A stretch of DNA of 8,765 nt, taken from the IMG/VR virus record IMGVR_UViG_3300028988_000042. One strand, given 5' to 3'. Numbering within the stretch: position 1 is the stretch's first letter; each line of letters begins with the position of its first letter. Positions 1 through 8,765 of this stretch are shown piece after piece. The DNA comes from a virus. Taxonomy: Duplodnaviria; Heunggongvirae; Uroviricota; Caudoviricetes. The notes beneath the pieces were generated by a model. The model did no database searches, was not told the DNA's origin, and worked only from the letters and a program-made list of their open reading frames with translations. The translations under genes and the position numbers were made by a program.

Positions 1-53
1 TCGGCAGCACGCCGCGCATCGAGCGCCGCGTTGATTTTCTCCTGCCAGCTCAT
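1..53 (-). CDS. bioF: 8-amino-7-oxononanoate synthase, first ~17 codons only (gene continues beyond window start)
   Basis: Reverse complement of 1-53 reads ATG AGC TGG CAG GAG AAA ATC AAC GCG GCG CTC GAT GCG CGG CGT GCT GCC = [17 protein letters not shown], the E. coli BioF N-terminus as recalled. The ATG (51-53) overlaps the bioB TGA stop (50-52) in an ATGA arrangement, as in the bioBFCD operon. Confidence 0.85.
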
Positions 54-1090
54 AGTGCTGCCGCGTTGTAATATTCGTCAGTGTCCGGGGTCATCAGTGC
101 CTGCTCCAGACGCTGCTGTTGTTCGTTATCCCCTGCCAGCACGGCAGTTTGCTGCGGATTTAGCCCCAGTTTGCGAAACAGTTGCAGGTCTTTATCTTCT
201 TCCGGATTCGGCGTGGTTAGCAGTTTGCAACCGTAGAAAATCGAGTTTGCGCCTGCCATAAAGCACATCGCCTGAGTCTGTTCGTTCATCTGCTCGCGTC
301 CGGCAGAAAGGCGCACGTAAGAGGTCGGCATCATGATCCGCGCGACCGCAATGGTGCGAATAAAATCAAAGGCATCGACATCATCGTTATCCGCCAGCGG
401 CGTGCCTTTCACCTTCACCAGCATGTTGATTGGTACGCTTTCCGGCGGCGTCGGCAGGTTTGCCAGTTGTAGCAATAATCCGGCGCGATCTTTTACCGTT
501 TCGCCTAAGCCCACAATGCCGCCAGAACAGACTTTGATCCCGGCATCGCGCACTTTTTCCAGCGTATCGAGGCGTTCCTGATAAGTGCGGGTGGTGATGA
601 TATTGCCGTAAAACTCCGGCGAGGTGTCCAGGTTGTGGTTGTAGTAATCCAGCCCGGCGTTCGCGAGGCGCTGCGCCTGAGATTCACTCAACGTGCCCAG
701 CGTCATACACGCCTCCAGCCCCATCGCTTTTACCCCCTGCACCATTTGTTCCAGGTACGGCATATCGCGTTCGTGGGGATTCTTCCACGCCGCGCCCATA
801 CAGAAACGCGTCGATCCCGCAGCTTTCGCTTTGCGCGCCGACTCCAGCACCTGTTCAACTTCCATCAACCGCTCGGCTTCCAGCCCGGTTTTGTAGCGCG
901 AGCTTTGCGGGCAGTATTTGCAATCTTCCGGACAAGCTCCGGTCTTAATCGACAGCAAAGTGCTGACCTGCACCTGACGAGGATCGAAATGCTGTCGATG
1001 CACCTGCTGCGCTTCAAACAGCAGATCCAGCAACGGTTTTTCAAATAATTCTGTGACTTGCGACAATGTCCAGCGTGGGCGGTGAGCCAT
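50..1090 (-). CDS. bioB: biotin synthase (radical SAM)
   Basis: 346-aa ORF beginning [64 protein letters not shown], containing the CxxxCxxC radical-SAM motif; matches E. coli BioB in length and sequence as recalled. Confidence 0.97.
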
Positions 1091-1176
1091 GGGGCTTCTC
1101 CAAAACGTGTTTTTTGTTGTTAATTCGGTGTAGACTTGTAAACCTAAATCTTTTCAATTTGGTTTACAAGTCGATT
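1091..1176. promoter_or_regulatory. bioO: divergent bioA / bioBFCD promoter region with BirA operator (bioO); inverted repeat arms 1134-1144 and 1161-1171
   Basis: ACTTGTAAACC (1134-1144) and its exact reverse complement GGTTTACAAGT (1161-1171) separated by 16 bp, lying between the divergent bioB and bioA starts; corresponds to the known BirA-biotinyl-AMP operator of E. coli. Confidence 0.8.
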
Positions 1177-2466
1177 ATGACAACGGACGATCTTGCCTTT
1201 GACCAACGCCATATCTGGCACCCATACACATCCATGACCTCCCCTCTGCCGGTTTATCCGGTCGCGAGCGCCGAAGGTTGCGAGCTAATTTTGTCTGACG
1301 GCAGACGCCTGGTTGACGGTATGTCGTCCTGGTGGGCGGCGATCCACGGCTATAATCACCCGCAGCTTAATGCGGCGATGAAGTCGCAAATTGATGCTAT
1401 GTCGCATGTGATGTTTGGCGGTATCACCCATGCGCCCGCCATCGAGCTATGCCGCAAACTGGTGGCAATGACGCCGCAACCGCTGGAATGCGTTTTTCTC
1501 GCGGACTCCGGCTCCGTAGCGGTGGAAGTGGCGATGAAAATGGCGTTGCAGTACTGGCAGGCCAAAGGCGAAGCGCGCCAGCGTTTTCTGACCTTCCGCA
1601 ATGGTTATCATGGCGATACCTTTGGCGCGATGTCGGTGTGCGATCCGGACAACTCAATGCACAGCCTGTGGAAAGGCTATCTGCCAGAAAACTTGTTTGC
1701 TCCCGCCCCGCAAAGCCGCATGGATGGTGAATGGGATGAACGTGATATGGTTGGCTTTGCCCGCCTGATGGCGGCGCATCGTCATGAAATCGCGGCGGTG
1801 ATCATTGAACCGATTGTCCAGGGCGCAGGCGGGATGCGCATGTACCATCCGGAATGGTTAAAACGAATCCGCAAAATGTGCGATCGCGAAGGTATCTTGC
1901 TGATTGCCGACGAGATCGCCACCGGATTTGGTCGTACCGGCAAACTGTTTGCCTGTGAACATGCAGAAATCGCGCCGGACATTTTGTGCCTCGGTAAAGC
2001 CTTAACCGGCGGCACAATGACCCTTTCCGCCACGCTCACCACGCGCGAGGTTGCGGAAACCATCAGTAACGGCGAAGCCGGTTGCTTTATGCATGGGCCA
2101 ACTTTTATGGGCAATCCGCTGGCCTGCGCGGCAGCAAACGCCAGCCTGGCGATTCTCGAATCTGGCGACTGGCAGCAACAGGTGGCGGCTATTGAAGTAC
2201 AGCTGCGCGAGCAACTTGCCCCCGCCCGTGATGCCGAAATGGTTGCCGATGTGCGCGTGCTGGGGGCAATCGGCGTAGTCGAAACCACTCATCCGGTGAA
2301 TATGGCGGCGCTGCAAAAATTCTTTGTCGAACAGGGTGTCTGGATCCGGCCTTTTGGCAAACTGATTTACCTGATGCCGCCCTATATTATTCTCCCGCAA
2401 CAGTTGCAGCGTCTGACCGCAGCGGTTAACCGCGCGGTACAGGATGAAACATTTTTTTGCCAATAA
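1177..2466 (+). CDS. bioA: adenosylmethionine-8-amino-7-oxononanoate aminotransferase
   Basis: ATG at 1177 is in frame with ORF 1066-2466 and gives a 429-aa product [29 protein letters not shown]... ending ...[10 protein letters not shown], matching E. coli BioA. The upstream extension to 1066 would run through the bio operator and is rejected. Confidence 0.96.
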
Positions 2467-2524
2467 CGAGAAGTCCGCGTGAGGGTTTCTGGCTACACTT
2501 TCTGCAAACAAGAAAGGAGGGTTC

Positions 2525-3001
2525 ATGAAACTCATCAGTAACGATCTGCGCGATGGCGATAAATTGCCGCATCGTCATGTCTTTAACGGCATGGGTTACG
2601 ATGGCGATAATATTTCACCGCATCTGGCGTGGGATGATGTTCCTGCGGGAACGAAAAGTTTTGTTGTCACCTGCTACGACCCGGATGCGCCAACCGGCTC
2701 CGGCTGGTGGCACTGGGTAGTTGTTAACTTACCCGCTGATACCCGCGTATTACCGCAAGGGTTTGGCTCTGGTCTGGTAGCAATGCCAGACGGCGTTTTG
2801 CAGACGCGTACCGACTTTGGTAAAACCGGGTACGATGGCGCAGCACCGCCGAAAGGCGAAACTCATCGCTACATTTTTACCGTTCACGCGCTGGATATAG
2901 AACGTATTGATGTCGATGAAGGTGCCAGCGGCGCGATGGTCGGGTTTAACGTTCATTTCCACTCTCTGGCAAGCGCCTCGATTACTGCGATGTTTAGTTA
3001 A
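2525..3001 (+). CDS. ybhB: PEBP-family (phosphatidylethanolamine-binding / kinase-inhibitor-like) protein
   Basis: 158-aa ORF MKLISNDLRDGDKLPHRHVFNGMGYDGDNISPHLAWDDVPAGTKSFVVTCYDPDAPTGSGWWHW... preceded by AGGAGG 5 nt upstream of the ATG; matches E. coli YbhB, which lies between bioA and attB(lambda) in K-12. Confidence 0.95.
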   Translation: MKLISNDLRDGDKLPHRHVFNGMGYDGDNISPHLAWDDVPAGTKSFVVTCYDPDAPTGSGWWHWVVVNLPADTRVLPQGFGSGLVAMPDGVLQTRTDFGKTGYDGAAPPKGETHRYIFTVHALDIERIDVDEGASGAMVGFNVHFHSLASASITAMFS

Positions 3002-3009
3002 TCACTCTG

Positions 3010-3032
3010 CCAGATGGCGCAATGCCATCTGG
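3010..3032 (+). terminator. stem-loop downstream of ybhB (possible weak terminator of the bioA-ybhB transcript)
   Basis: CCAGATGGC (3010-3018) / GCCATCTGG (3024-3032), 9-bp perfect stem with a 5-nt loop, 9 nt after the ybhB stop. There is no clean U-tract immediately 3' (TATCACTT...), so intrinsic termination is uncertain. Confidence 0.3.
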
Positions 3033-3091
3033 TATCACTTAAAGGTATTAAAAACAACTTTTTGTCTTTTTACCTTCCCGTTTCGCTCAAG

Positions 3092-3106
3092 TTAGTATAA
3101 AAAAGT
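3092..3106 (-). other. attR: lambda-type att core (O) of a hybrid attR site; B' arm toward ybhB, P arm toward higher coordinates
   Basis: Minus strand reads TTCA-ACTTTTTTATACTAA-CTTGAGCGAAACGGGAAGG. The core matches lambda GCTTTTTTATACTAA at 14/15 (first base A instead of G), the 3' flank CTTGAGCGAAACG is the E. coli attB B' arm, and the 5' flank TTCA matches the lambda P arm. Confidence 0.8.
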
Positions 3107-3250
3107 TGAATGCGAAACGGTAAAAACCATTAATATCAACGTTTTATAATTGATTCAGTCTAAAAAATAGACTGCATAATGATACAAAACACAACATATC
3201 CAGTCACTATGAATCAACCACTTAGATGGTCTTAGTGACCTGTAACAGAG
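3107..3250 (-). other. lambda-like attP P arm with two inverted arm-type Int-binding-site-like repeats
   Basis: Minus strand reads CTCTGTTACAGGTCACTAAGACCATCTAAGTGGTTGATTCATAGTGACTGGATATGTTGTGTTTTG..., closely resembling the lambda P arm (P1/P2 region) as recalled. CAGTCACTAT at 3201-3210 and the inverted CAGGTCACTAA (reverse complement of 3232-3242) fit the arm-type Int site pattern. Confidence 0.65.
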
Positions 3251-3251
3251 C

Positions 3252-3294
3252 ATTAGCGCAAGGTGATTTTTTTGTCTTCTTGCGCTAATTTTTT
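3252..3294 (+). terminator. rho-independent terminator hairpin, candidate sib/tI-like retroregulator in the att P arm
   Basis: ATTAGCGCAAG (3252-3262) pairs perfectly with CTTGCGCTAAT (3279-3289), 16-nt T-rich loop, followed by a T-run to 3294. It is on the strand an int transcript would use when reading P' to O to P in the circular phage. Confidence 0.55.
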
Positions 3295-3608
3295 GTCAAC
3301 ACACTGGGTTAGCTGAATTTACAACCACGCTCAGTATCTCGATAAGCGCAGAGAAATGATGCAGTGGTGGGCGGACTGGATTGATGAAAAGGTGGAGTGA
3401 TCCGCCTTAACCATTATCGAAGAGCACAAAGCCTTGCAATCCAGTGCAATGCTTTGTGTATACCTATTTTCCCAAATTTGTTTCAGTAATATGTCGATCT
3501 CCAATTATTAGAATGGTACACTAAACAACGTGCGCAATTACAATAATGTAGCGTATAAAAAAACAAAAGCTAATTATATTTTTTAAATAAACATAGTGAA
3601 CTAAATAT

Positions 3609-4595
3609 ATGAGAAATTATAGCATAGATACTATGAGGTTTGTAGCGTGCTTTTTTATAATAGCTGTTCATATAGGTGGGTACCCGCAACAAGGAGAATT
3701 ATTTACAGAGGTATTTAGAGGTGTATCGCGATGGGCTGTGCCATTCTTCTTCCTGGTTACAGGATATTTTTTATCATGCCAAAACAAAAGAAAACTACTA
3801 TTAAGACTTACTAGGATAACATATATAACACTAATATTTAGCGTACTGTTCTTTATTTTTCAACTAACTTTGAACTATAAAGATGGATATTCATTAATTA
3901 TAAGCATCATAGATCCATTTATTTTTATCGGTGGGTCTTATTTCCATTTGTGGTTCTTGCCTTCAATCTTAATAGGTATGATTTCAGTAAGTTACATGAT
4001 AGAAAATGTTTCAGAAAATTTTGGAATCTCTTTAAGTATACTTATTATATTTATAATATGGTGCGTTGATTTCTTTGGTACTGCCTACTTCTCACATGAT
4101 ATATATGAATCAACAAGAACTATTCTATCAATACCAACAATATATATAGGGTATTACTTATACACTAAGAAAGACATAATTATAAAATCTAACGGGAATT
4201 TATTGATTTTATGTATGCTAGCTTCCGTGGTTTTTTCCGTGATTGAGATTCTAATATACAAATCAATATATGGTTCACTTGCCAATATAAGAGAACTACC
4301 TTTATTTTCTGTTATTACTGCTATAATAATACTAATGTTATCTATAAGATCACAAAGCACAAAAGAGACTGTTCTATCAAGGATAGGAAGAGATGATTCT
4401 ATCGTCATATATCTTATTCACCCACTATTTATAGTTTTAATATCAAAGGTGTTTAGGGTTGCTCATGAATATAACGGGATGGCTATTCTTGTGATTACAT
4501 TTATTGTAAGCATTTCGTTTTCATTGTTTGTCAAGAGTAAATTTCCTTCAATATATTCATTTCTTACTGGCGGTTTTATAAAAGAAACAAAATAA
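3609..4595 (+). CDS. acyltransferase family 3 (AT3) integral membrane protein; candidate prophage-encoded O-antigen O-acetyltransferase (lysogenic conversion)
   Basis: 328-aa very hydrophobic ORF with ~10 predicted TM segments. AT3 hallmarks: R-x10-H in the first helix (MRFVACFFIIAVH), VPFFFLVTGYFL (FFxxSG-type motif), and a C-terminal YLIHP motif. Visibly AT-rich relative to flanking DNA. Sits between attR and the tailspike, where P22-like phages carry serotype-conversion genes. Confidence 0.8.
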   Translation: MRNYSIDTMRFVACFFIIAVHIGGYPQQGELFTEVFRGVSRWAVPFFFLVTGYFLSCQNKRKLLLRLTRITYITLIFSVLFFIFQLTLNYKDGYSLIISIIDPFIFIGGSYFHLWFLPSILIGMISVSYMIENVSENFGISLSILIIFIIWCVDFFGTAYFSHDIYESTRTILSIPTIYIGYYLYTKKDIIIKSNGNLLILCMLASVVFSVIEILIYKSIYGSLANIRELPLFSVITAIIILMLSIRSQSTKETVLSRIGRDDSIVIYLIHPLFIVLISKVFRVAHEYNGMAILVITFIVSISFSLFVKSKFPSIYSFLTGGFIKETK

Positions 4596-4605
4596 ACCAT
4601 AAAAC

Positions 4606-4630
4606 ACACCACCATAATATATGGTGGTGT
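4606..4630. terminator. bidirectional stem-loop terminator between the convergent acyltransferase and tailspike genes
   Basis: ACACCACCAT (4606-4615) / ATGGTGGTGT (4621-4630), 10-bp perfect stem with a 5-nt loop; A-rich on the 5' side (a U-tract for the minus-strand transcript) and T-containing on the 3' side. Lies in the 57-bp gap between the two stop codons. Confidence 0.55.
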
Positions 4631-4652
4631 ATCAAATTATTTCTGAGCTGAT

Positions 4653-6551
4653 TTACATGTCATTTTCTGAATTATAAATAAGTACAACCTGACCTGAATA
4701 CGTTGCTTGTGATGACCACCCTGTATCCATATTGTATGGCCTGATCCTTACTTGGCTTGAACTAATTAATCTAGCTTTTATAAGCCATGTATCATCGTTT
4801 GTGTTTGCTGCTACCTCCTGAATTGATACTGTATTTGCTGGCTGGAATTGATCTGGTATTGCTCTTGTTACAACCCTTGACGATCCAGATACTGTTAGTG
4901 TGAAAAACTCCCTACCCGATGTTGATATAGATTGGCAACCTTCAGAAAAGTTGTTTCTTATATCTGGTCTGGATGATCTTCCTTCTGCTATGGTCTTCAT
5001 GCGAATAACGCTAAGTGGCATTACAGTTCCCGTTGTATTACGGAATCTGCAACCTGTTATCTTAACCTGAAACGGATTTGATATAAGATTTATTGCAACT
5101 CCATGTTCAGGTACTAACCAGTTGCATGAGCTAACAGTAAATCTCGCACCGTCTGAGTTTGATTCAATTAAGCATCCATCGAAATAGCATCCAACAAAAA
5201 TATCTGCGTTAGACATTATAACCACACGCCCTTTTGCGCTATCAGCAGACTGATTTGGATAAAAATGACTATTACTAAAAGAATTTGCTCCTTTACGTAA
5301 ATACATAACATCTGCATACTGTGAACCAATAACTAAGTCTGAGAAGTTATTATCATAGTTGTTGATATCCAAGCCAACGCCATCTGTAACGTTAGTTGGG
5401 TAAGAAGCATTCCAATCTGGTTGTTGAAATATAAACGTTTTTCCCACATTTAATTCATGTGGCTGTGAGTCATTAGGTTCAGTCTTTAATCCATAACGCA
5501 AGTATCTTGTCAGTAGACCTCCCAATATAGTCACTTTCAAAAAGTCATCATAAACCCTAATTGCGCCGGAAGCTTTCCAGTTAGCATCGATATTAGGATT
5601 AAATACCACGATGTTTTCAATTGGTCTAGAGCCGTTAACTTTACGAAAATCTAGAACAGGTTCTGTAGAAGGAAATGCTCCAATTGCTAAAAGAGATGGA
5701 TTCAACATAGAAAAATTCAAACAATCTGTTATTGTAAATGGACGTGATACATAGTAAGTGCCCTGAGTCATATCAAAAACAGTGCCACCCAAATTGTACA
5801 TGTTTGGATCTTCTCTATCAGTTGAGTAAGTTGTTTTGCGATTTCTCTTGATTATACTATCTCTCCACAAATCCAGTGCATCAGAGCTGTCGAATGTTGA
5901 ATCGCATGGTTTTGCTCCGTAATTTCTTGGGTCATCTACTGAATACCCAGAAAGAAATCCAACACACACCCATGTTGAGTCTGGAGTGGAGCCTGGCGTA
6001 ACTATATAACCATCAATTGGTATATTTCCTATATATGAATAATACATTCCATCTGAATATTTGAATGATTCGTATTTATTTAATATCACTCCGCCAACTG
6101 ACATATCTCCAGATTTTTTGTATACATATGGCATGTAATCGCTATAAACATTACCACCATATGTGCTCCCGACAATCTTATCTCCATTGTTTGATGAAAT
6201 ATCAACTCGCAACTGATCAGGATCATACTTCAGTAAATTAGGAAAATAGAACTGCTGCACACCATATGCATCATAAACAGCCATAGAGTGGCCTTGCACA
6301 GTTACGAACTTGGCAATCTGTCCGTTATATACAGGGTAACCAGCAGCGTTAATGATGATTGGTTGCGAAACAGGAACGTGAGAGCCGTCTTCGTTCTCCA
6401 CATAAACCTGAATCTGGTTTTCAGGGTTTTCCGGGTCAGTGTCAATTTTACCGATATAAATTTTGCCATTGGCTACGGCTTTAAAAGAACGAGCCATAGT
6501 GAAGAGTTGCGAAGGCATGCTTACCACAACATTTGCGGTGATATCTGACAT
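4653..6551 (-). CDS. tailspike protein: P22 gp9-like N-terminal head-binding domain fused to a divergent receptor-binding domain
   Basis: From ATG 6551 (GGAG 7 nt upstream) the product starts [40 protein letters not shown]...LKYDPDQLR, close to the P22 tailspike N-terminus [40 protein letters not shown]...LKYDPDQY as recalled. After the DPDQ hinge (6213-6224) the remaining ~515 aa are unrelated to P22 gp9 and AT-rich. The track ORF start at 6599 is rejected for the homology-supported ATG with an SD. Confidence 0.9.
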
Positions 6552-6576
6552 TTCATTGCTCCAGACGAATGATATG

Positions 6577-6599
6577 ATGCAATCATGATGTGATTGCAT
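6577..6599. promoter_or_regulatory. perfect inverted repeat, candidate operator for the Mnt-like repressor in the divergent tailspike/mnt intergenic region
   Basis: ATGCAATCA (6577-6585) - TGATG - TGATTGCAT (6591-6599): 9-bp arms, 5-bp spacer. Each arm carries a TTGCAT (-35-like) hexamer, one per strand. Located 26 bp upstream of the tailspike start codon and 74 bp upstream of the mnt-like start codon. Confidence 0.4.
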
Positions 6600-6672
6600 A
6601 CCGAAATGGTACTATTGAGTATTTATCCAGTAGGTTACGATGCCATTCCACCCAACTGGTGAGGCATCAAGG

Positions 6673-6933
6673 ATGTACAGCAAATACGACGAGGCGCAGT
6701 TTCACTTGAGACTTCCGCATGAACTCCACGCGAAAATTAAACAGCGCGCGAAGATGAATAACAGGTCGCTGAACTCAGAGATAATTGCAGCGATTGAAGA
6801 ATCATTGGCTAAACAAAGCTCTGCATCAGTTTACATTGACGATGCAGAGCGTATGGCAGAACAACAATCTGATATGGTTAAGAAAATTGTCTTTGATACG
6901 CTCAAGGAGCTATATAAAAAAGACAGCAACTAA
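6673..6933 (+). CDS. mnt: Mnt-like ribbon-helix-helix (Arc/MetJ superfamily) repressor
   Basis: MYSKYDEAQFHLRLPHELHAKIKQRAKMNNRSLNSEIIAAIEESL...DAERMAEQQSDMVKKIVFDTLKELYKK aligns with P22 Mnt (...HFNFRMPMEVREKLKFRAEANGRSMNSELLQIVQDAL...DAERLADEQSELVKKMVFDTLKDLYKK) as recalled. Start chosen at ATG 6673 (GAGG 8 nt upstream, length matches Mnt); the in-frame ATG at 6640 is an alternative. Confidence 0.85.
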   Translation: MYSKYDEAQFHLRLPHELHAKIKQRAKMNNRSLNSEIIAAIEESLAKQSSASVYIDDAERMAEQQSDMVKKIVFDTLKELYKKDSN

Positions 6934-6953
6934 CCATCCATTACGGAGGATTT

Positions 6954-7031
6954 ATGCAAAGAGATATGATGAATATTACATTCTACATATTTGGTTTTTG
7001 CACTTTCCTGGTGTTTGCAAAGCTATTCTGA
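6954..7031 (+). CDS. hypothetical 25-aa hydrophobic micro-protein (single predicted TM helix)
   Basis: ATG 6954 with GGAGG at 6945-6949 (4-nt spacer); translation MQRDMMNITFYIFGFCTFLVFAKLF then TGA. Directly downstream of mnt on the same strand and overlaps the 3' end of the convergent ejection-protein gene by 9 bp. No homology evidence; could be fortuitous. Confidence 0.2.
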   Translation: MQRDMMNITFYIFGFCTFLVFAKLF

Positions 7032-8531
7032 CAACGCATCAGACTTAGCCCCCTGCGTCATAGCGTTAATTGCCTTTTGTGCCTGCTGCATGGCTTTCTC
7101 AAACGCTGTTGATCCGCGTGGGGTGTTTGCCATTCGGAGCATTGCATTTCTGAATGGCTCGCTCTCATAGGCGCGAGTGAGAAGTCCGTAGCTTACTGCT
7201 GCGCCAGTTGTCGCCGGGTTCATTGCCGTCCCATACCCAATAATGAACGGGATAGTTTGCTGCCCTGTGGGTGTTGTTACTGCCGCTTTTGCAGCCTGCT
7301 GCGTGGATTGCAGGTAGTTTTTCAATCCTTTCAGATAAGCGGCTTCCTGACCTTTAAATGTGATGCCAGTCTGGTTTTGCAGGATGTTAAGCTGCCGAAG
7401 GAACTGGTCAGGGGAACCACCTGATTTCTCCATCGCCTTTCCAATGATGCCATTGCGCATTTGCGCCCTGCCAACACGACCAACTGAGTTATACAGAGTC
7501 TTAATTTCCGATTTGTTCTTGCTGAATAGCATGTTGTTGACAACTTCCGGCGTAAGATCGCCTTTCATGAGAACATTCTTCAGCCTGGTATTCTTTAGTT
7601 TCGCCGCTTCGTCAGCGTAAACGGCATTGGCCTGCTGATATTTACGGAGAGTATCGCTGCCAAGATTCTGACCAATGGCACCATTGATATCGTCGGTCAT
7701 TGCCTTGTAAACTCGCTGAATGGCAGCATCGGAACGGTTTGGTAATACCGGTCGCTCACCCTTCACGTCCATTCTGAACTGGCTGCGCAGGTCGCTTAAT
7801 TGCTTCAAATCCAGATTTACCGGACCATCAGGGCCAGCATTGCGAACAAGCTCATCACGATATGACTGAAGTTTTGAAATTGTCTCGTTATCAGCTACCT
7901 TACCAAGCTTCTGCAGATTAGATATCTCAGTATCAATCTGCTGAATTGCTCGCGCAGGCTGAATGTTTACTCCAGCCATAGCATTCTGAACCTGCTCCAG
8001 TCGATTACCGGCGGCACGACGAATTCCTGATGTTTTCGTTTTAAGGCTGCCAATAACAACCGCTGGATCATACTCGCCGAATTTATCAGCAAATCTCTGC
8101 ACCAACTGACTTCTCGCTTCCTGTTGCGTTGCTCTCATTCCGCTTGTGCCAGCCAGGGGAATATTTTCTGCTGTAGTCTGCGCCATTTTCCCGACGCGGG
8201 AAGTAGGCTGTAACAGGTCTGTGGTGTGCAGAGGCACTCCTTCACGCTCTGCAAATCTGATAGCTTGCTGCGCTTCTGGTGCAATAGCACCACGAACGCC
8301 ACGATAAGCAGCGCCTAATCCACGTCCGGCAGCGTTAATAGCGCCGCCAGCCAGAACGCCAACGCCTAAATCGGTGGCGAGTGCTTCCGCATCATCTTTC
8401 GCACTATTTGCAGCAAGTGATCCAACTGCGTTTTCAGCGAGAAGGCGAGTTGCCCCCTGAGCAATTCGACCAGCAAGTGTTGGTGCCTGTGCTGCCGCTC
8501 TCTCAACGCCAGCAGGAGTGAGGTAAGGCAA
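7023..8531 (-). CDS. phage virion internal / DNA-ejection-type protein (position equivalent to P22 gene 16); true 5' end uncertain
   Basis: Long ORF with Ala/Gly/Gln/Lys-rich composition typical of P22-like ejection proteins, located immediately upstream of the immunity-I/tailspike region on the tailspike strand. The listed start is a TTG with no good SD, and the frame stays open with protein-like translation up to a TAA at 8760-8762, so the real start is probably upstream. Confidence 0.6.
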   Translation of the reverse strand: MPYLTPAGVERAAAQAPTLAGRIAQGATRLLAENAVGSLAANSAKDDAEALATDLGVGVLAGGAINAAGRGLGAAYRGVRGAIAPEAQQAIRFAEREGVPLHTTDLLQPTSRVGKMAQTTAENIPLAGTSGMRATQQEARSQLVQRFADKFGEYDPAVVIGSLKTKTSGIRRAAGNRLEQVQNAMAGVNIQPARAIQQIDTEISNLQKLGKVADNETISKLQSYRDELVRNAGPDGPVNLDLKQLSDLRSQFRMDVKGERPVLPNRSDAAIQRVYKAMTDDINGAIGQNLGSDTLRKYQQANAVYADEAAKLKNTRLKNVLMKGDLTPEVVNNMLFSKNKSEIKTLYNSVGRVGRAQMRNGIIGKAMEKSGGSPDQFLRQLNILQNQTGITFKGQEAAYLKGLKNYLQSTQQAAKAAVTTPTGQQTIPFIIGYGTAMNPATTGAAVSYGLLTRAYESEPFRNAMLRMANTPRGSTAFEKAMQQAQKAINAMTQGAKSDALSE

Positions 8532-8765
8532 TGCTTCAGCAAATACCCTTCCCTCTGTCGTTTGTGGAGTCAGCGCGCCTTGCTGAAAGCCAAAGTCCTG
8601 CTCTAATCCCTGCGTTGTTACTCGTGGCGCTGGTTGATATGTACCATCGCCAATACCGAGTTTACCGCCAGCCCAAGTGAAGTGGTCAACAAAAACTGGC
8701 CACCGAGTTAGAGTTTTTTCCAGTATCGATTTTCCGATTCGTTTGGTGGTAACCCACCATTATAT

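What the first reader, a model, noticed from the sequence alone, without database searches (positions are those of the whole stretch)
6552..6933. Orphan Mnt-like repressor divergent from the tailspike, with no arc or ant
In P22 the immunity-I region is mnt, then the Pmnt/Pant operator region, then arc, ant and gene 9. Here an Mnt homolog lies directly back to back with the tailspike with only 121 bp between them, and neither arc nor ant is present. The residues on the predicted DNA-reading beta-strand (QFHLRLP) differ from P22 Mnt (HFNFRMP) and Arc (QFNLRWP), which suggests a different operator. The repressor may have been repurposed, for example to gate a promoter reading into the tailspike or for autoregulation alone.
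Basis: partly seen in the sequence, partly recalled or inferred. Interest (0 to 1): 0.6.

Follow-up and report, generated by a model that had tools for sequence, protein, structure and literature searches.

The report
Lone Mnt repressor beside prophage tailspike
This is a real but ordinary feature: the cut-down secondary-immunity region of a P22-like prophage remnant, in which an Mnt-type repressor keeps its own promoter and a changed operator but has no antirepressor left to control.

Summary
An 86-aa Mnt homolog (6673-6933, +) lies head-to-head with a P22-type tailspike (4653-6551, -), 121 bp apart. No arc or ant homolog is in the window or in the whole related phage Sf101. The arrangement is not new. 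Lone mnt in this region was described for ST64T, ST104 and L. The mnt-tailspike layout also occurs in IME10, Sf101, VSe13 and Gally, and this cassette is in 282 of 5426 complete E. coli genomes. Here it sits in a prophage remnant at the lambda attachment site, cut by ISEc52 at 8677/8678. The mnt-side half of the spacer corresponds to P22 Omnt plus Pmnt. The site at the Omnt position is ATACC-N5-GGTAC (6598-6612), and its sequence changes with the beta-strand residues across Mnt types, so a different operator is supported. I found no convincing promoter towards the tailspike, and operator-to-tailspike distance varies widely, so autoregulation is favoured over tailspike gating. mnt is under purifying selection (dN/dS 0.18; 0.045 for the DNA-binding half). 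Side findings are an unannotated conserved 25-codon hydrophobic ORF (6954-7031) just after mnt, and hairpins readable only on the tailspike-sense strand. Interest is modest.

The parts
3092..3105 (.). Attachment-site core at the prophage right end. It lies between ybhB and the prophage DNA.
   Evidence: Pattern search. The ybhB...ybhC context of the same element in E. coli LR-51 is. The core sequence itself is from memory.
3609..4595 (+). Acyltransferase_3 family gene, a probable O-antigen acetylase carried as a lysogenic-conversion gene. Its GC content is low (28-32%).
   Evidence: Pfam PF01757 5.9e-28; PHROG O-acetyltransferase; composition.
4653..6551 (-). Tailspike gene (632 aa) with the P22 gp9 head-binding domain at residues 1-113.
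6552..6672 (.). The 121-bp divergent control region between the tailspike and mnt.
   Evidence: 57 of about 86 related loci have exactly 121 bp.
6577..6599 (-). Perfect 9-bp inverted repeat with a 5-nt loop. It probably forms a hairpin in the tailspike-sense RNA, ending 25 nt before the tailspike ATG. It is not the conserved operator candidate.
   Evidence: repeat; 13 alleles, and the commonest allele is imperfect as DNA; 96.6% of cells paired in minus sense against 84.6% in plus sense.
6598..6612 (.). Predicted Mnt operator ATACC-GAAAT-GGTAC, at the position of P22 Omnt. Its right half ends 2 bp before the -35 of Pmnt.
   Evidence: Positional homology with annotated P22 Omnt/Pmnt. Conserved as C(A/G)TACC-N5-GGTAC in all QFHLRL-type loci from five genera. 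It is the only TACC-N5-GGTA in the window and the only one in Sf101.
6615..6641 (+). Inferred mnt promoter: -35 TTGAGT (6615-6620), a 15-nt spacer, and -10 TACGAT (6636-6641).
   Evidence: Best plus-strand position-weight-matrix hit (7.7 bits), at the place homologous to mapped P22 Pmnt. The score alone is not significant, because 28% of shuffles reach it.
6673..6933 (+). mnt: an 86-aa ribbon-helix-helix repressor with the Mnt C-terminal tetramerisation helix. The recognition strand reads QFHLRLP.
   Evidence: dN/dS is 0.18 within the clade and 0.045 for the N-terminal domain against VSe13.
6818..6850 (-). Perfect 10-bp inverted repeat inside mnt. On the minus (late-gene) strand it reads as a hairpin followed by UUUGUUU, which is terminator-like. 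It lies about 270 nt upstream of the tailspike ATG.
   Evidence: fold z = -2.3.
6954..7031 (+). Unannotated 25-codon ORF (MQRDMMNITFYIFGFCTFLVFAKLF) with a GGAGG ribosome-binding site, starting 20 nt after the mnt stop codon. It is probably co-transcribed with mnt.
   Evidence: pN/pS 0.23, and variable sites by codon position 8/5/14; also present in Sf6, ST64T, Gally, 720R6 and 683R2.
7023..8677 (-). 3' part of the gene for the gp16-type DNA-ejection protein, truncated at 8677.
   Evidence: PHROG 770. 100% identical to LR-51 up to position 8677.
8678..8765 (.). End of an IS3-family element (ISEc52), beginning TGAAGTGG. It replaces the rest of the prophage.
   Evidence: identical to L005 29220-29307; annotation; sequence.

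Best explanation
The locus is the minimal form of the variable 'ant moron' (immunity I region) that lies between gene 16 and the tailspike gene in P22-like (Lederbergvirus) phages. It is of the IME10/Sf101 type. In this genome it sits in a defective prophage remnant at the lambda attachment site, cut off by ISEc52.

Shown: the 86-aa protein is a true Mnt family repressor, with an N-terminal ribbon-helix-helix DNA-binding domain and the Mnt tetramerisation helix.

Inferred from positional homology: the mnt-proximal half of the 121-bp spacer is the counterpart of P22 Omnt plus Pmnt.

Inferred mechanism: Mnt binds as a tetramer to ATACC-N5-GGTAC (6598-6612), which abuts the -35 of its own promoter, and so sets the level of its own transcript. 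In this window that transcript probably also carries the 25-codon hydrophobic ORF at 6954-7031. The ancestral target promoter Pant, and with it arc, sar and ant, is gone. The repressor is therefore an autoregulated leftover module, kept by selection in the phage population, rather than a gate on the tailspike. The sign of the autoregulation is not settled. Repression by overlap with the -35 is my preferred reading. As I recall the P22 work, a site at this position is compatible with Pmnt activity.
For: Family identity: Pfam Arc and Repressor_Mnt; PDB 1MNT 3.4e-19 and 1QEY 1.7e-8.

Context: the gp16 homolog and the tailspike flank mnt. IME10 is 97.7% identical and Sf101 98.3% identical over the region.

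Homology of the control region, read in the mnt-sense direction:
- P22: AGGTCCACCGTGGACCT, then ATTGAGA, 17 nt, TATCAT.
- ST64T: AAGACCACGGTGGTCTT, then ATTGTGG, 17 nt, TATGAT.
- Window: CATACCGAAATGGTACT, then ATTGAGT, 15 nt, TACGAT.

The operator sequence changes with the recognition strand:
- HFNFRM goes with GGTCCAC-N-GTGGACC (P22, epsilon34, Pluralibacter, Pectobacterium).
- QFNLRL goes with AGACCAC-N-GTGGTCT.
- QFNFRM goes with ATATCAC-N-GTGATAT.
- QFHLRL goes with (A/G)TACC-N5-GGTAC (Escherichia, Salmonella, Buttiauxella, Serratia).

Promoters: the Pmnt counterpart is the best or second-best mnt-sense promoter match in every lone-mnt type, and no Pant counterpart appears. The operator-to-Pmnt spacing is fixed, while the operator-to-tailspike distance varies from about 40 to about 600 bp.

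Targets: no second copy of the operator exists in the whole Sf101 genome.

Selection: dN/dS is 0.18 among 51 alleles and 0.045 for the DNA-binding domain against VSe13.
Against: No binding or transcript data exist for this Mnt type. The promoter call rests on homology only: 7.7 bits is reached by 28% of shuffles, and the spacer is an unfavourable 15 nt.

The window's operator is only partly symmetric (4 of 8 positions of the 17-mer, five-base half-sites ATACC and GGTAC).

If, as I recall for P22, Mnt at this position does not directly repress Pmnt, then a conserved operator implies another target.

A weak Pant-position candidate exists (ATGGCA, 17 nt, AATACT, 4.9 bits). Its start site would lie under the operator.

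In about 170 non-redundant QFHLRL-type loci the divergent neighbour is almost always a tailspike gene. History may explain this, but so could a functional link.
Confidence: 0.55

Rival explanations
1. Tailspike gating. A residual Pant-like promoter still fires towards the tailspike, and Mnt bound at the operator blocks it. This would keep the tailspike silent in the lysogen, or tune its level.
For: The P22 geometry is kept, with the operator just downstream of where the Pant -10 would be. A weak candidate (ATGGCA, 17 nt, AATACT) sits at the homologous position with its predicted start inside the operator. mnt of this type is almost always the divergent neighbour of a tailspike gene. Villafane et al. 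note that the P22 ant moron may affect tailspike level (PMC2629481).
Against: The candidate scores 4.9 bits, which 77% of shuffles reach, and the best minus-strand match is below the shuffle mean. The Pant -10 counterpart differs and lacks the key final T in most lone-mnt types: TATATC, TGTATC, TGCATC, CAAATC and TAAATA. The operator-to-tailspike distance is not conserved, and some loci have a 570-bp insert or an oppositely oriented gene in between.
Confidence: 0.17
2. Trans-acting immunity. The resident Mnt represses Pant of incoming phages that carry ant under the same operator type. This would protect the lysogen from antirepressor-driven induction.
For: This would explain purifying selection and the diversification of specificity classes without any target in cis. 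Antirepressor cross-talk between prophages is documented (PMC7380047).
Against: None of about 290 fetched loci has arc or ant beside a QFHLRL-type mnt or beside an ATACC-N5-GGTAC site. Where an antirepressor module is present in the same moron, it has its own divergent ribbon-helix-helix repressor. The sample is biased towards close relatives.
Confidence: 0.1
3. Non-functional relic. In this genome mnt is only a hitch-hiker in a decaying prophage remnant, retained because the neighbouring O-antigen acyltransferase is useful.
For: The element here has lost everything beyond gp16 to an ISEc52-associated deletion. One of 51 alleles has an internal stop. Zaworski et al. raise the relic option for phage L (PMC8022706).
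Against: The ORF, operator and promoter are intact here and identical to those in full-length prophages. Across the population dN/dS is 0.18, and 0.045 for the DNA-binding domain. Functional phages (IME10, Sf101, ST64T, Gally, VSe13) keep the module.
Confidence: 0.1
4. Toxin-antitoxin-like pair. Mnt would be a ribbon-helix-helix antitoxin and regulator for the downstream 25-aa hydrophobic peptide.
For: The gene order (ribbon-helix-helix gene, then a small ORF 20 nt downstream with a strong ribosome-binding site) resembles type II operons. Pfam gives weak HicB and FitA-like matches, which reflect the shared ribbon-helix-helix fold.
Against: The small ORF occurs without any mnt in Sf6. In Gally, 720R6 and ST64T it is separated from mnt by other genes. 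It is anchored to the gp16 end, not to mnt. Mnt carries a tetramerisation helix, not a toxin-binding tail.
Confidence: 0.03

Closest known systems
P22 immunity I region (mnt, Omnt, Pmnt/Pant, arc, sar, ant)
   Same: Same protein family and two-domain architecture. 48.8% identity over 80 residues, and the C-terminal helix is nearly identical. Same place between gene 16 and gene 9. Same layout of operator next to the -35 of Pmnt.
   Different: No arc, sar, ant or sieA. The Pant hexamers are eroded. The operator is ATACC-N5-GGTAC instead of GGTCCAC-N-GTGGACC. The outward-facing strand residues are Q, H, R instead of H, N, R. The central CAC/GTG, shared by all types with Asn at the middle position, is lost here, where His replaces Asn.
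mnt-only 'ant morons' of Salmonella phages ST64T, ST104 and L (Villafane et al. 2008, PMC2629481; Zaworski et al. 2020, PMC8022706)
   Same: Same reduced layout, with mnt divergent from the tailspike, a 121-146 bp spacer and no arc or ant. The function is acknowledged in the literature as unknown ('could have acquired another function or be a remnant').
   Different: Those phages have the QFNLRL strand with an AGACCAC-N-GTGGTCT operator and a P22-type tailspike leader. The window has the QFHLRL strand, a different operator and a different leader. Only the 25-codon ORF lies between mnt and gene 16.
Coliphage IME10 and Shigella phage Sf101 (sequenced relatives carrying the same cassette)
   Same: 97.7% and 98.3% nucleotide identity over the mnt-tailspike junction, and an O-acetyltransferase next to the tailspike in Sf101.
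   Different: These are complete phages. In IME10 the gene is not annotated at all. In Sf101 it is called 'partition protein ATPase' with the 97-aa start. Sf101 lacks the 25-codon ORF.
Shigella phage Sf6 gene 13-gene 14 junction
   Same: Same tailspike start region and same 25-codon ORF abutting the gene 13 (gp16) end.
   Different: Sf6 has no mnt cassette. Relative to Sf6 the window carries about 375 extra bases (about 6568-6945) holding the hairpin, operator, promoter and mnt.
Autoregulated ribbon-helix-helix repressors such as Arc and CopG
   Same: Small beta-strand-reading dimers that bind as a dimer of dimers to short inverted repeats overlapping their own promoters (PMC2724298).
   Different: Mnt-type proteins tetramerise through a separate C-terminal helix. 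Whether this one represses its own promoter is untested.

Membership tests
Mnt repressor family (P22 Mnt type) | N-terminal ribbon-helix-helix (Arc-like) DNA-binding domain | tested here: met
   Pfam PF03869 7.5e-15 over residues 7-49. 1MNT match 3.4e-19 over residues 6-79.
Mnt repressor family (P22 Mnt type) | C-terminal Mnt tetramerisation helix | tested here: met
   Pfam PF11423 3.4e-14 over residues 57-82. 1QEY match 1.7e-8.
Mnt repressor family (P22 Mnt type) | Encoded between the gene 16 and gene 9 homologs of a P22-like phage, on the strand opposite to the late genes | tested here: met
   The same layout is seen in IME10, Sf101, ST64T and P22.
Mnt repressor family (P22 Mnt type) | Dyad-symmetric operator of about 17 bp next to the -35 of Pmnt | tested here: inconclusive
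   A conserved element lies at exactly that position and changes with the recognition residues. In the window it is only partly symmetric (ATACC/GGTAC). Binding is untested.
Mnt repressor family (P22 Mnt type) | Binds the operator as a tetramer and represses Pant | not testable with these tools
   Needs EMSA or footprinting and transcription assays.
Complete immunity I region (mnt-arc-sar-ant) | Presence of arc and ant under Pant, and of the sar antisense RNA | tested here: not met
   tblastn with Arc, three Ant proteins and another antirepressor set found nothing in the window, LR-51 or Sf101. No Rfam match in 6300-7200.
Complete immunity I region (mnt-arc-sar-ant) | Strong Pant promoter facing away from mnt, overlapped by Omnt | tested here: not met
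   Best tailspike-sense match is 5.4 bits against 15.9 for P22 Pant, and is below the shuffle mean.
Type II toxin-antitoxin module with a ribbon-helix-helix antitoxin | Obligate pairing of the ribbon-helix-helix gene with a downstream toxin gene | tested here: not met
   The downstream 25-codon ORF occurs without mnt in Sf6 and is separated from mnt in Gally, 720R6 and ST64T. No toxin family hit.

The most novel reading that the evidence does not exclude
The tailspike-adjacent mnt cassette would be a self-contained regulatory module of P22-like phages that diversifies in specificity and acts on tailspike expression independently of the late promoter. It would work with two tailspike-sense RNA elements: a terminator-like hairpin hidden antisense inside mnt, and a leader hairpin that has non-homologous but analogous versions in P22-type and IME10-type leaders. 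In addition, the 25-codon ORF next to it would be an unrecognised small membrane protein, conserved from Sf6 to ST64T and expressed from the prophage.
Probability: 0.15. Interest if true: 0.55.

Novelty: new member of a known kind. Interest (0 to 1): 0.3.

Why it matters
Lone mnt genes have been noted in P22-like phages since 2008, with their role left open. This analysis gives the question a testable form. It provides a specific predicted operator (ATACC-N5-GGTAC), a table of recognition-strand and operator pairs across four or five Mnt specificity classes, and evidence of purifying selection, which argues against simple decay. That table could be useful for studying beta-strand DNA recognition, a classic Arc/Mnt problem. 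The practical gains are annotation fixes. The gene is missing in IME10 and mislabelled 'partition protein ATPase' in Sf101, P22 and epsilon34 RefSeq records. A conserved 25-codon ORF is annotated in none of the records examined. None of this changes how P22-like phages are understood.

Tried and rejected
1. The perfect palindrome 6577-6599 as the Mnt operator: rejected. The commonest allele is imperfect as DNA. Variation among 60 haplotypes concentrates there (11 of 23 sites vary, against 3 of 14 in the operator core). The same Mnt protein occurs with a 135-bp spacer that lacks the palindrome.
3. A second operator copy that would reveal a distant target: none in the window, LR-51 or Sf101.
4. 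A known RNA such as sar in 6300-7200: no Rfam match at E<=1.
5. Promoter calling from sequence alone: not decisive. Both the tool scan and my own position-weight matrix give scores within the range of shuffled sequence. The promoter assignment therefore rests on homology with P22.
6. The 97-aa start used in the Sf101 annotation: rejected, because that ATG lies inside the inferred -10.
7. The toxin-antitoxin reading of mnt plus the small ORF: rejected on distribution.
8. An ant-bearing partner for this operator class: not found among about 290 loci, but sampling was biased towards close relatives.
9. Literature search for functional work on lone mnt genes: only the two genome papers that note them.
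10. Shuffle controls on the hairpin alignments are weak. 18 of 500 shuffles reach the observed pairing for the window-type hairpin, and the control is uninformative for the P22-type hairpin. The RNA reading stays a hint.

Full report
**What is in the window.** The ORF map and family searches give this order:
- bioB, bioA and ybhB, which are host genes;
- an AT-rich Acyltransferase_3 gene (3609-4595, +);
- a tailspike gene on the minus strand, whose product from the ATG at 6551 carries the P22 head-binding domain at residues 1-113 (5e-66);
- a 121-bp spacer;
- an 86-aa ORF on the plus strand (6673-6933);
- after 89 bp, the 3' part of a gp16-type DNA-ejection gene on the minus strand (PHROG 770, 2e-196).

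The 86-aa product matches Pfam Arc (7.5e-15) and Repressor_Mnt (3.4e-14). It also matches the solved P22 Mnt domains 1MNT (3.4e-19) and 1QEY (1.7e-8).

**No arc or ant.** I ran tblastn with P22 Arc and Ant, two divergent Ant proteins, and an unrelated Arc/antirepressor/KilA set taken from related prophages. It found nothing at E<=0.01 in the window, in 45.8 kb of the matching E. coli chromosome, or in the complete genome of the close relative Sf101. No Rfam family, including sar, matches 6300-7200.

**Genomic setting.** The window is 100% identical to E. coli LR-51 from position 1 to 8677. Its last 88 bases equal the end of an IS3-family ISEc52 that lies 3.4 kb further along in LR-51. In LR-51 the element between ybhB and ybhC is already a remnant. 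It holds the acyltransferase, tailspike, mnt, gp16, gp20, gp7, gp14 and a partial needle gene, then ISEc52 and a partial integrase. In the window's genome the IS abuts gp16 directly. A 14-of-15 match to the lambda att core, as I recall that sequence, lies at 3092-3105. So this is the right end of a P22-like prophage that integrated at the lambda attachment site and was later gutted.

**The arrangement is known and common.** The junction is 97.7% identical in coliphage IME10, where the gene is unannotated. It is 98.3% identical in Shigella phage Sf101, where the gene is annotated as 'partition protein ATPase'. mnt divergent from the tailspike, with no arc or ant between, is also seen in Gally, 720R6, ST160, ST64T, VSe13, JEP4 and Proteus phage Brookers. 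Villafane et al. described this variable 'ant moron' and noted that ST64T, ST104 and Para1 hold only mnt plus one unknown gene (PMC2629481). [quoted passage not shown] The exact protein is on 646 contigs in the protein collection. The cassette is in 282 of 5426 complete E. coli genomes.

**Anatomy of the spacer.** I compared it with the annotated P22 control region and with the other lone-mnt types. The mnt-proximal half is the counterpart of Omnt plus Pmnt. Read in the mnt direction:
- P22: AGGTCCACCGTGGACCT, then ATTGAGA, 17 nt, TATCAT.
- ST64T: AAGACCACGGTGGTCTT, then ATTGTGG, 17 nt, TATGAT.
- Gally: GAGACCACTGTGGTCTT, then ATTGAGG, 17 nt, TAAGAT.
- Window: CATACCGAAATGGTACT (6597-6613), then ATTGAGT, 15 nt, TACGAT.

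The ATG at 6640 lies inside this -10, and GAGG precedes 6673. This supports the 86-aa start.

**Operator candidate.** I fetched about 290 related loci. Every Mnt with the QFHLRL strand has C(A/G)TACC-N5-GGTAC at this fixed position, in Escherichia, Salmonella, Buttiauxella and Serratia. One Buttiauxella locus has the nearly perfect dyad GTACCA-A-A-TGGTAC. The other strand types pair with other sites:
- HFNFRM proteins (P22, epsilon34, Pluralibacter, Pectobacterium) keep GGTCCAC-N-GTGGACC, and they do have arc and ant next door.
- QFNLRL proteins pair with AGACCAC-N-GTGGTCT.
- A QFNFRM protein pairs with ATATCAC-N-GTGATAT.

So the site changes together with the recognition strand, and the central CAC/GTG is lost exactly where His replaces the middle Asn. 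It occurs once in the window and once in the whole Sf101 genome.

**The perfect palindrome is something else.** The repeat ATGCAATCA-N5-TGATTGCAT (6577-6599) is the most conspicuous feature, but it is not conserved as a DNA dyad. The commonest of 13 alleles has a C at 6583. Variation among 60 haplotypes is densest there. The same Mnt protein also occurs with a 135-bp spacer that lacks the palindrome. The substitutions have a pattern. Four different single transitions each give a G.U pair in the tailspike-sense RNA but a C.A mismatch in the mnt-sense RNA, and there are two compensated pairs. In all, 96.6% of cells pair in minus sense against 84.6% in plus sense. P22-type tailspike leaders carry a different hairpin (CCGUAGC-CAY-GCUGCGG) at the analogous place, about 28 nt before the ATG. 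Its variants also stay paired only in tailspike sense. I read these as analogous leader hairpins of unknown role. The statistics are thin: four of four here, and seven of eight when the hairpin inside mnt is included.

**Is there a promoter into the tailspike?** A position-weight-matrix scan recovers P22 Pant (15.9 bits) and Pmnt (12.1 bits). In every lone-mnt type the Pmnt counterpart is the best or second-best mnt-sense match (7.4-11.8 bits). Nothing comparable appears on the tailspike-sense strand. In the window the best minus-strand score (5.4) is below the mean of shuffles (6.6). The Pmnt score (7.7) is itself reached by 28% of shuffles, so it rests on homology. The Pant -10 counterpart differs among types and usually lacks the final T. 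The operator-to-Pmnt distance is fixed. The operator-to-tailspike distance ranges from about 40 bp (Brookers) through 54 bp (window) to 250-600 bp where extra DNA or an oppositely oriented gene is inserted. This favours an operator that works with Pmnt. A weak candidate at the Pant position (ATGGCA, 17 nt, AATACT, 4.9 bits) would start under the operator, so gating is not excluded.

**Is the gene alive?** Among 51 alleles with the 121-bp spacer, mean dS is 0.095 and dN is 0.017, a ratio of 0.18. One allele has an internal stop. Against VSe13 the DNA-binding half has saturated synonymous sites and dN/dS of about 0.045. The C-terminal half is of a different type in VSe13 and JEP4 and is P22-like in the window. 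The protein is therefore a domain mosaic. The module is maintained by selection in the phage population. In this remnant its present use is unknown.

**mnt can sit beside a separate antirepressor module.** Many prophages with a VSe13-type mnt next to the tailspike also carry a complete separate module between that mnt and gene 16. It consists of a second ribbon-helix-helix repressor divergent from a small Arc-like gene, then an antirepressor and a KilA-like gene. In one case there is a P22-type Ant at 85% identity. None of these has a second ATACC-N5-GGTAC site. The tailspike-adjacent mnt is thus a unit of its own, not the controller of those antirepressors.

**mnt is not quite alone.** Twenty nucleotides after its stop codon, behind GGAGG, is a 25-codon ORF (6954-7031) encoding MQRDMMNITFYIFGFCTFLVFAKLF. 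It is intact in 46 of 51 distinct downstream sequences, has pN/pS of 0.23, and its variable sites split 8/5/14 by codon position. It also occurs in Sf6, which has no mnt, in Gally, 720R6 and 683R2, and as a 23-codon version in ST64T. In all of them it abuts the gp16 end. It is annotated in no record I saw and is absent from the protein collection. In this minimal moron Pmnt is the obvious promoter for it.

**Verdict.** It is wrong about rarity and is not supported on tailspike gating. My preferred mechanism, at about 0.55 confidence, is an Mnt tetramer on ATACC-N5-GGTAC next to its own -35, setting the level of an mnt-plus-small-ORF transcript. The rivals are tailspike gating (0.17), trans-immunity (0.10), a relic in this genome (0.10) and a toxin-antitoxin-like pair (0.03). 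This is a new member, with a new specificity class, of a known kind. Interest is modest.

Noticed in passing
window 6954-7031 (+): Unannotated 25-codon ORF with a GGAGG ribosome-binding site, encoding a hydrophobic peptide (MQRDMMNITFYIFGFCTFLVFAKLF). It is conserved with synonymous variation (pN/pS 0.23) in IME10-type prophages, Sf6, Gally, 720R6 and 683R2, and as a 23-aa version in ST64T. It always abuts the gp16 3' end on the opposite strand. It is absent from all annotations seen and from the protein collection.
   Followed up: partly
window 6577-6599 (minus sense); compare L004 (P22) about 5164-5180: The tailspike 5' leader carries a 9-bp hairpin 25 nt before the ATG. Allele variants keep pairing in tailspike-sense RNA only. 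P22-type leaders have a non-homologous 7-bp hairpin (CCGUAGC-CAY-GCUGCGG) at the analogous position, with the same one-strand wobble pattern. The function is unknown.
   Followed up: partly
window 6818-6850 (minus sense): Perfect 10-bp inverted repeat inside mnt, at the junction of its two domains. On the late-gene strand it reads as a hairpin followed by UUUGUUU (terminator-like; fold z = -2.3). Three of four single transitions among alleles keep pairing in minus sense.
   Followed up: partly
window 8677/8678: Junction with the end of IS3-family ISEc52 (TGAAGTGG...). Relative to E. coli LR-51 the window's genome lacks a further 3.4 kb (the rest of gp16, plus gp20, gp7, gp14 and the partial needle gene). 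The prophage at the lambda attachment site is reduced to the acyltransferase, tailspike, mnt and a gp16 stub.
   Followed up: yes
window 6673-6933, compared with L011 (VSe13) and L006 (JEP4): Mnt is a domain mosaic. The QFHLRL DNA-binding half is shared with VSe13 and JEP4, which have an unrelated C-terminal helix. The window's C-terminal helix is the P22/ST160 type.
   Followed up: partly
L151, L117, L134, L106, L017 (about 3300-5400 in each locus): Prophages with a tailspike-adjacent mnt often also carry a separate module between that mnt and gene 16. It consists of a 99-127-aa ribbon-helix-helix repressor divergent from a 53-63-aa Arc-like gene, followed by a ~236-aa antirepressor and a KilA-like gene. 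In L134 it is instead a P22-type Ant (85% identical) followed by a ~270-aa KilA-like ORF, and no Arc-like gene was seen beside it.
   Followed up: partly
L031, L049, L057, L067, L090, L094, L100, L117 (upstream of mnt): The first 15 nt of the IME10-type tailspike gene (ATGTCAGATATCACC) are retained as a stub. About 570 bp of other DNA follows, then a different tailspike (MFIMPEQLYNVVV...). In L117 the insert encodes a 166-aa ORF on the mnt strand. A recombination boundary sits exactly at the tailspike start.
   Followed up: no
RefSeq phage records NC_027398 (Sf101), NC_002371 (P22), NC_011976 (epsilon34), NC_019501 (IME10): mnt is labelled 'partition protein ATPase' in the Sf101, P22 and epsilon34 RefSeq records and is not annotated at all in IME10. 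Sf101 uses the 97-aa start, which probably lies upstream of the transcript start.
   Followed up: yes
window 3609-4595 and 4653-6400: The acyltransferase (28-32% GC) and the tailspike receptor-binding part (37-40% GC) are much more AT-rich than the flanking host genes (52-58% GC), as expected for horizontally exchanged serotype-conversion and host-range modules.
   Followed up: no
L021 (Buttiauxella gaviniae) 2992-3237: A QFHLRLP-type Mnt-like gene with a half-conserved operator (CGTTTCAAAATGGTACT) lies in what does not look like a P22-like context: the neighbours are other phage structural-looking ORFs. This suggests the cassette moves between phage types.
   Followed up: no
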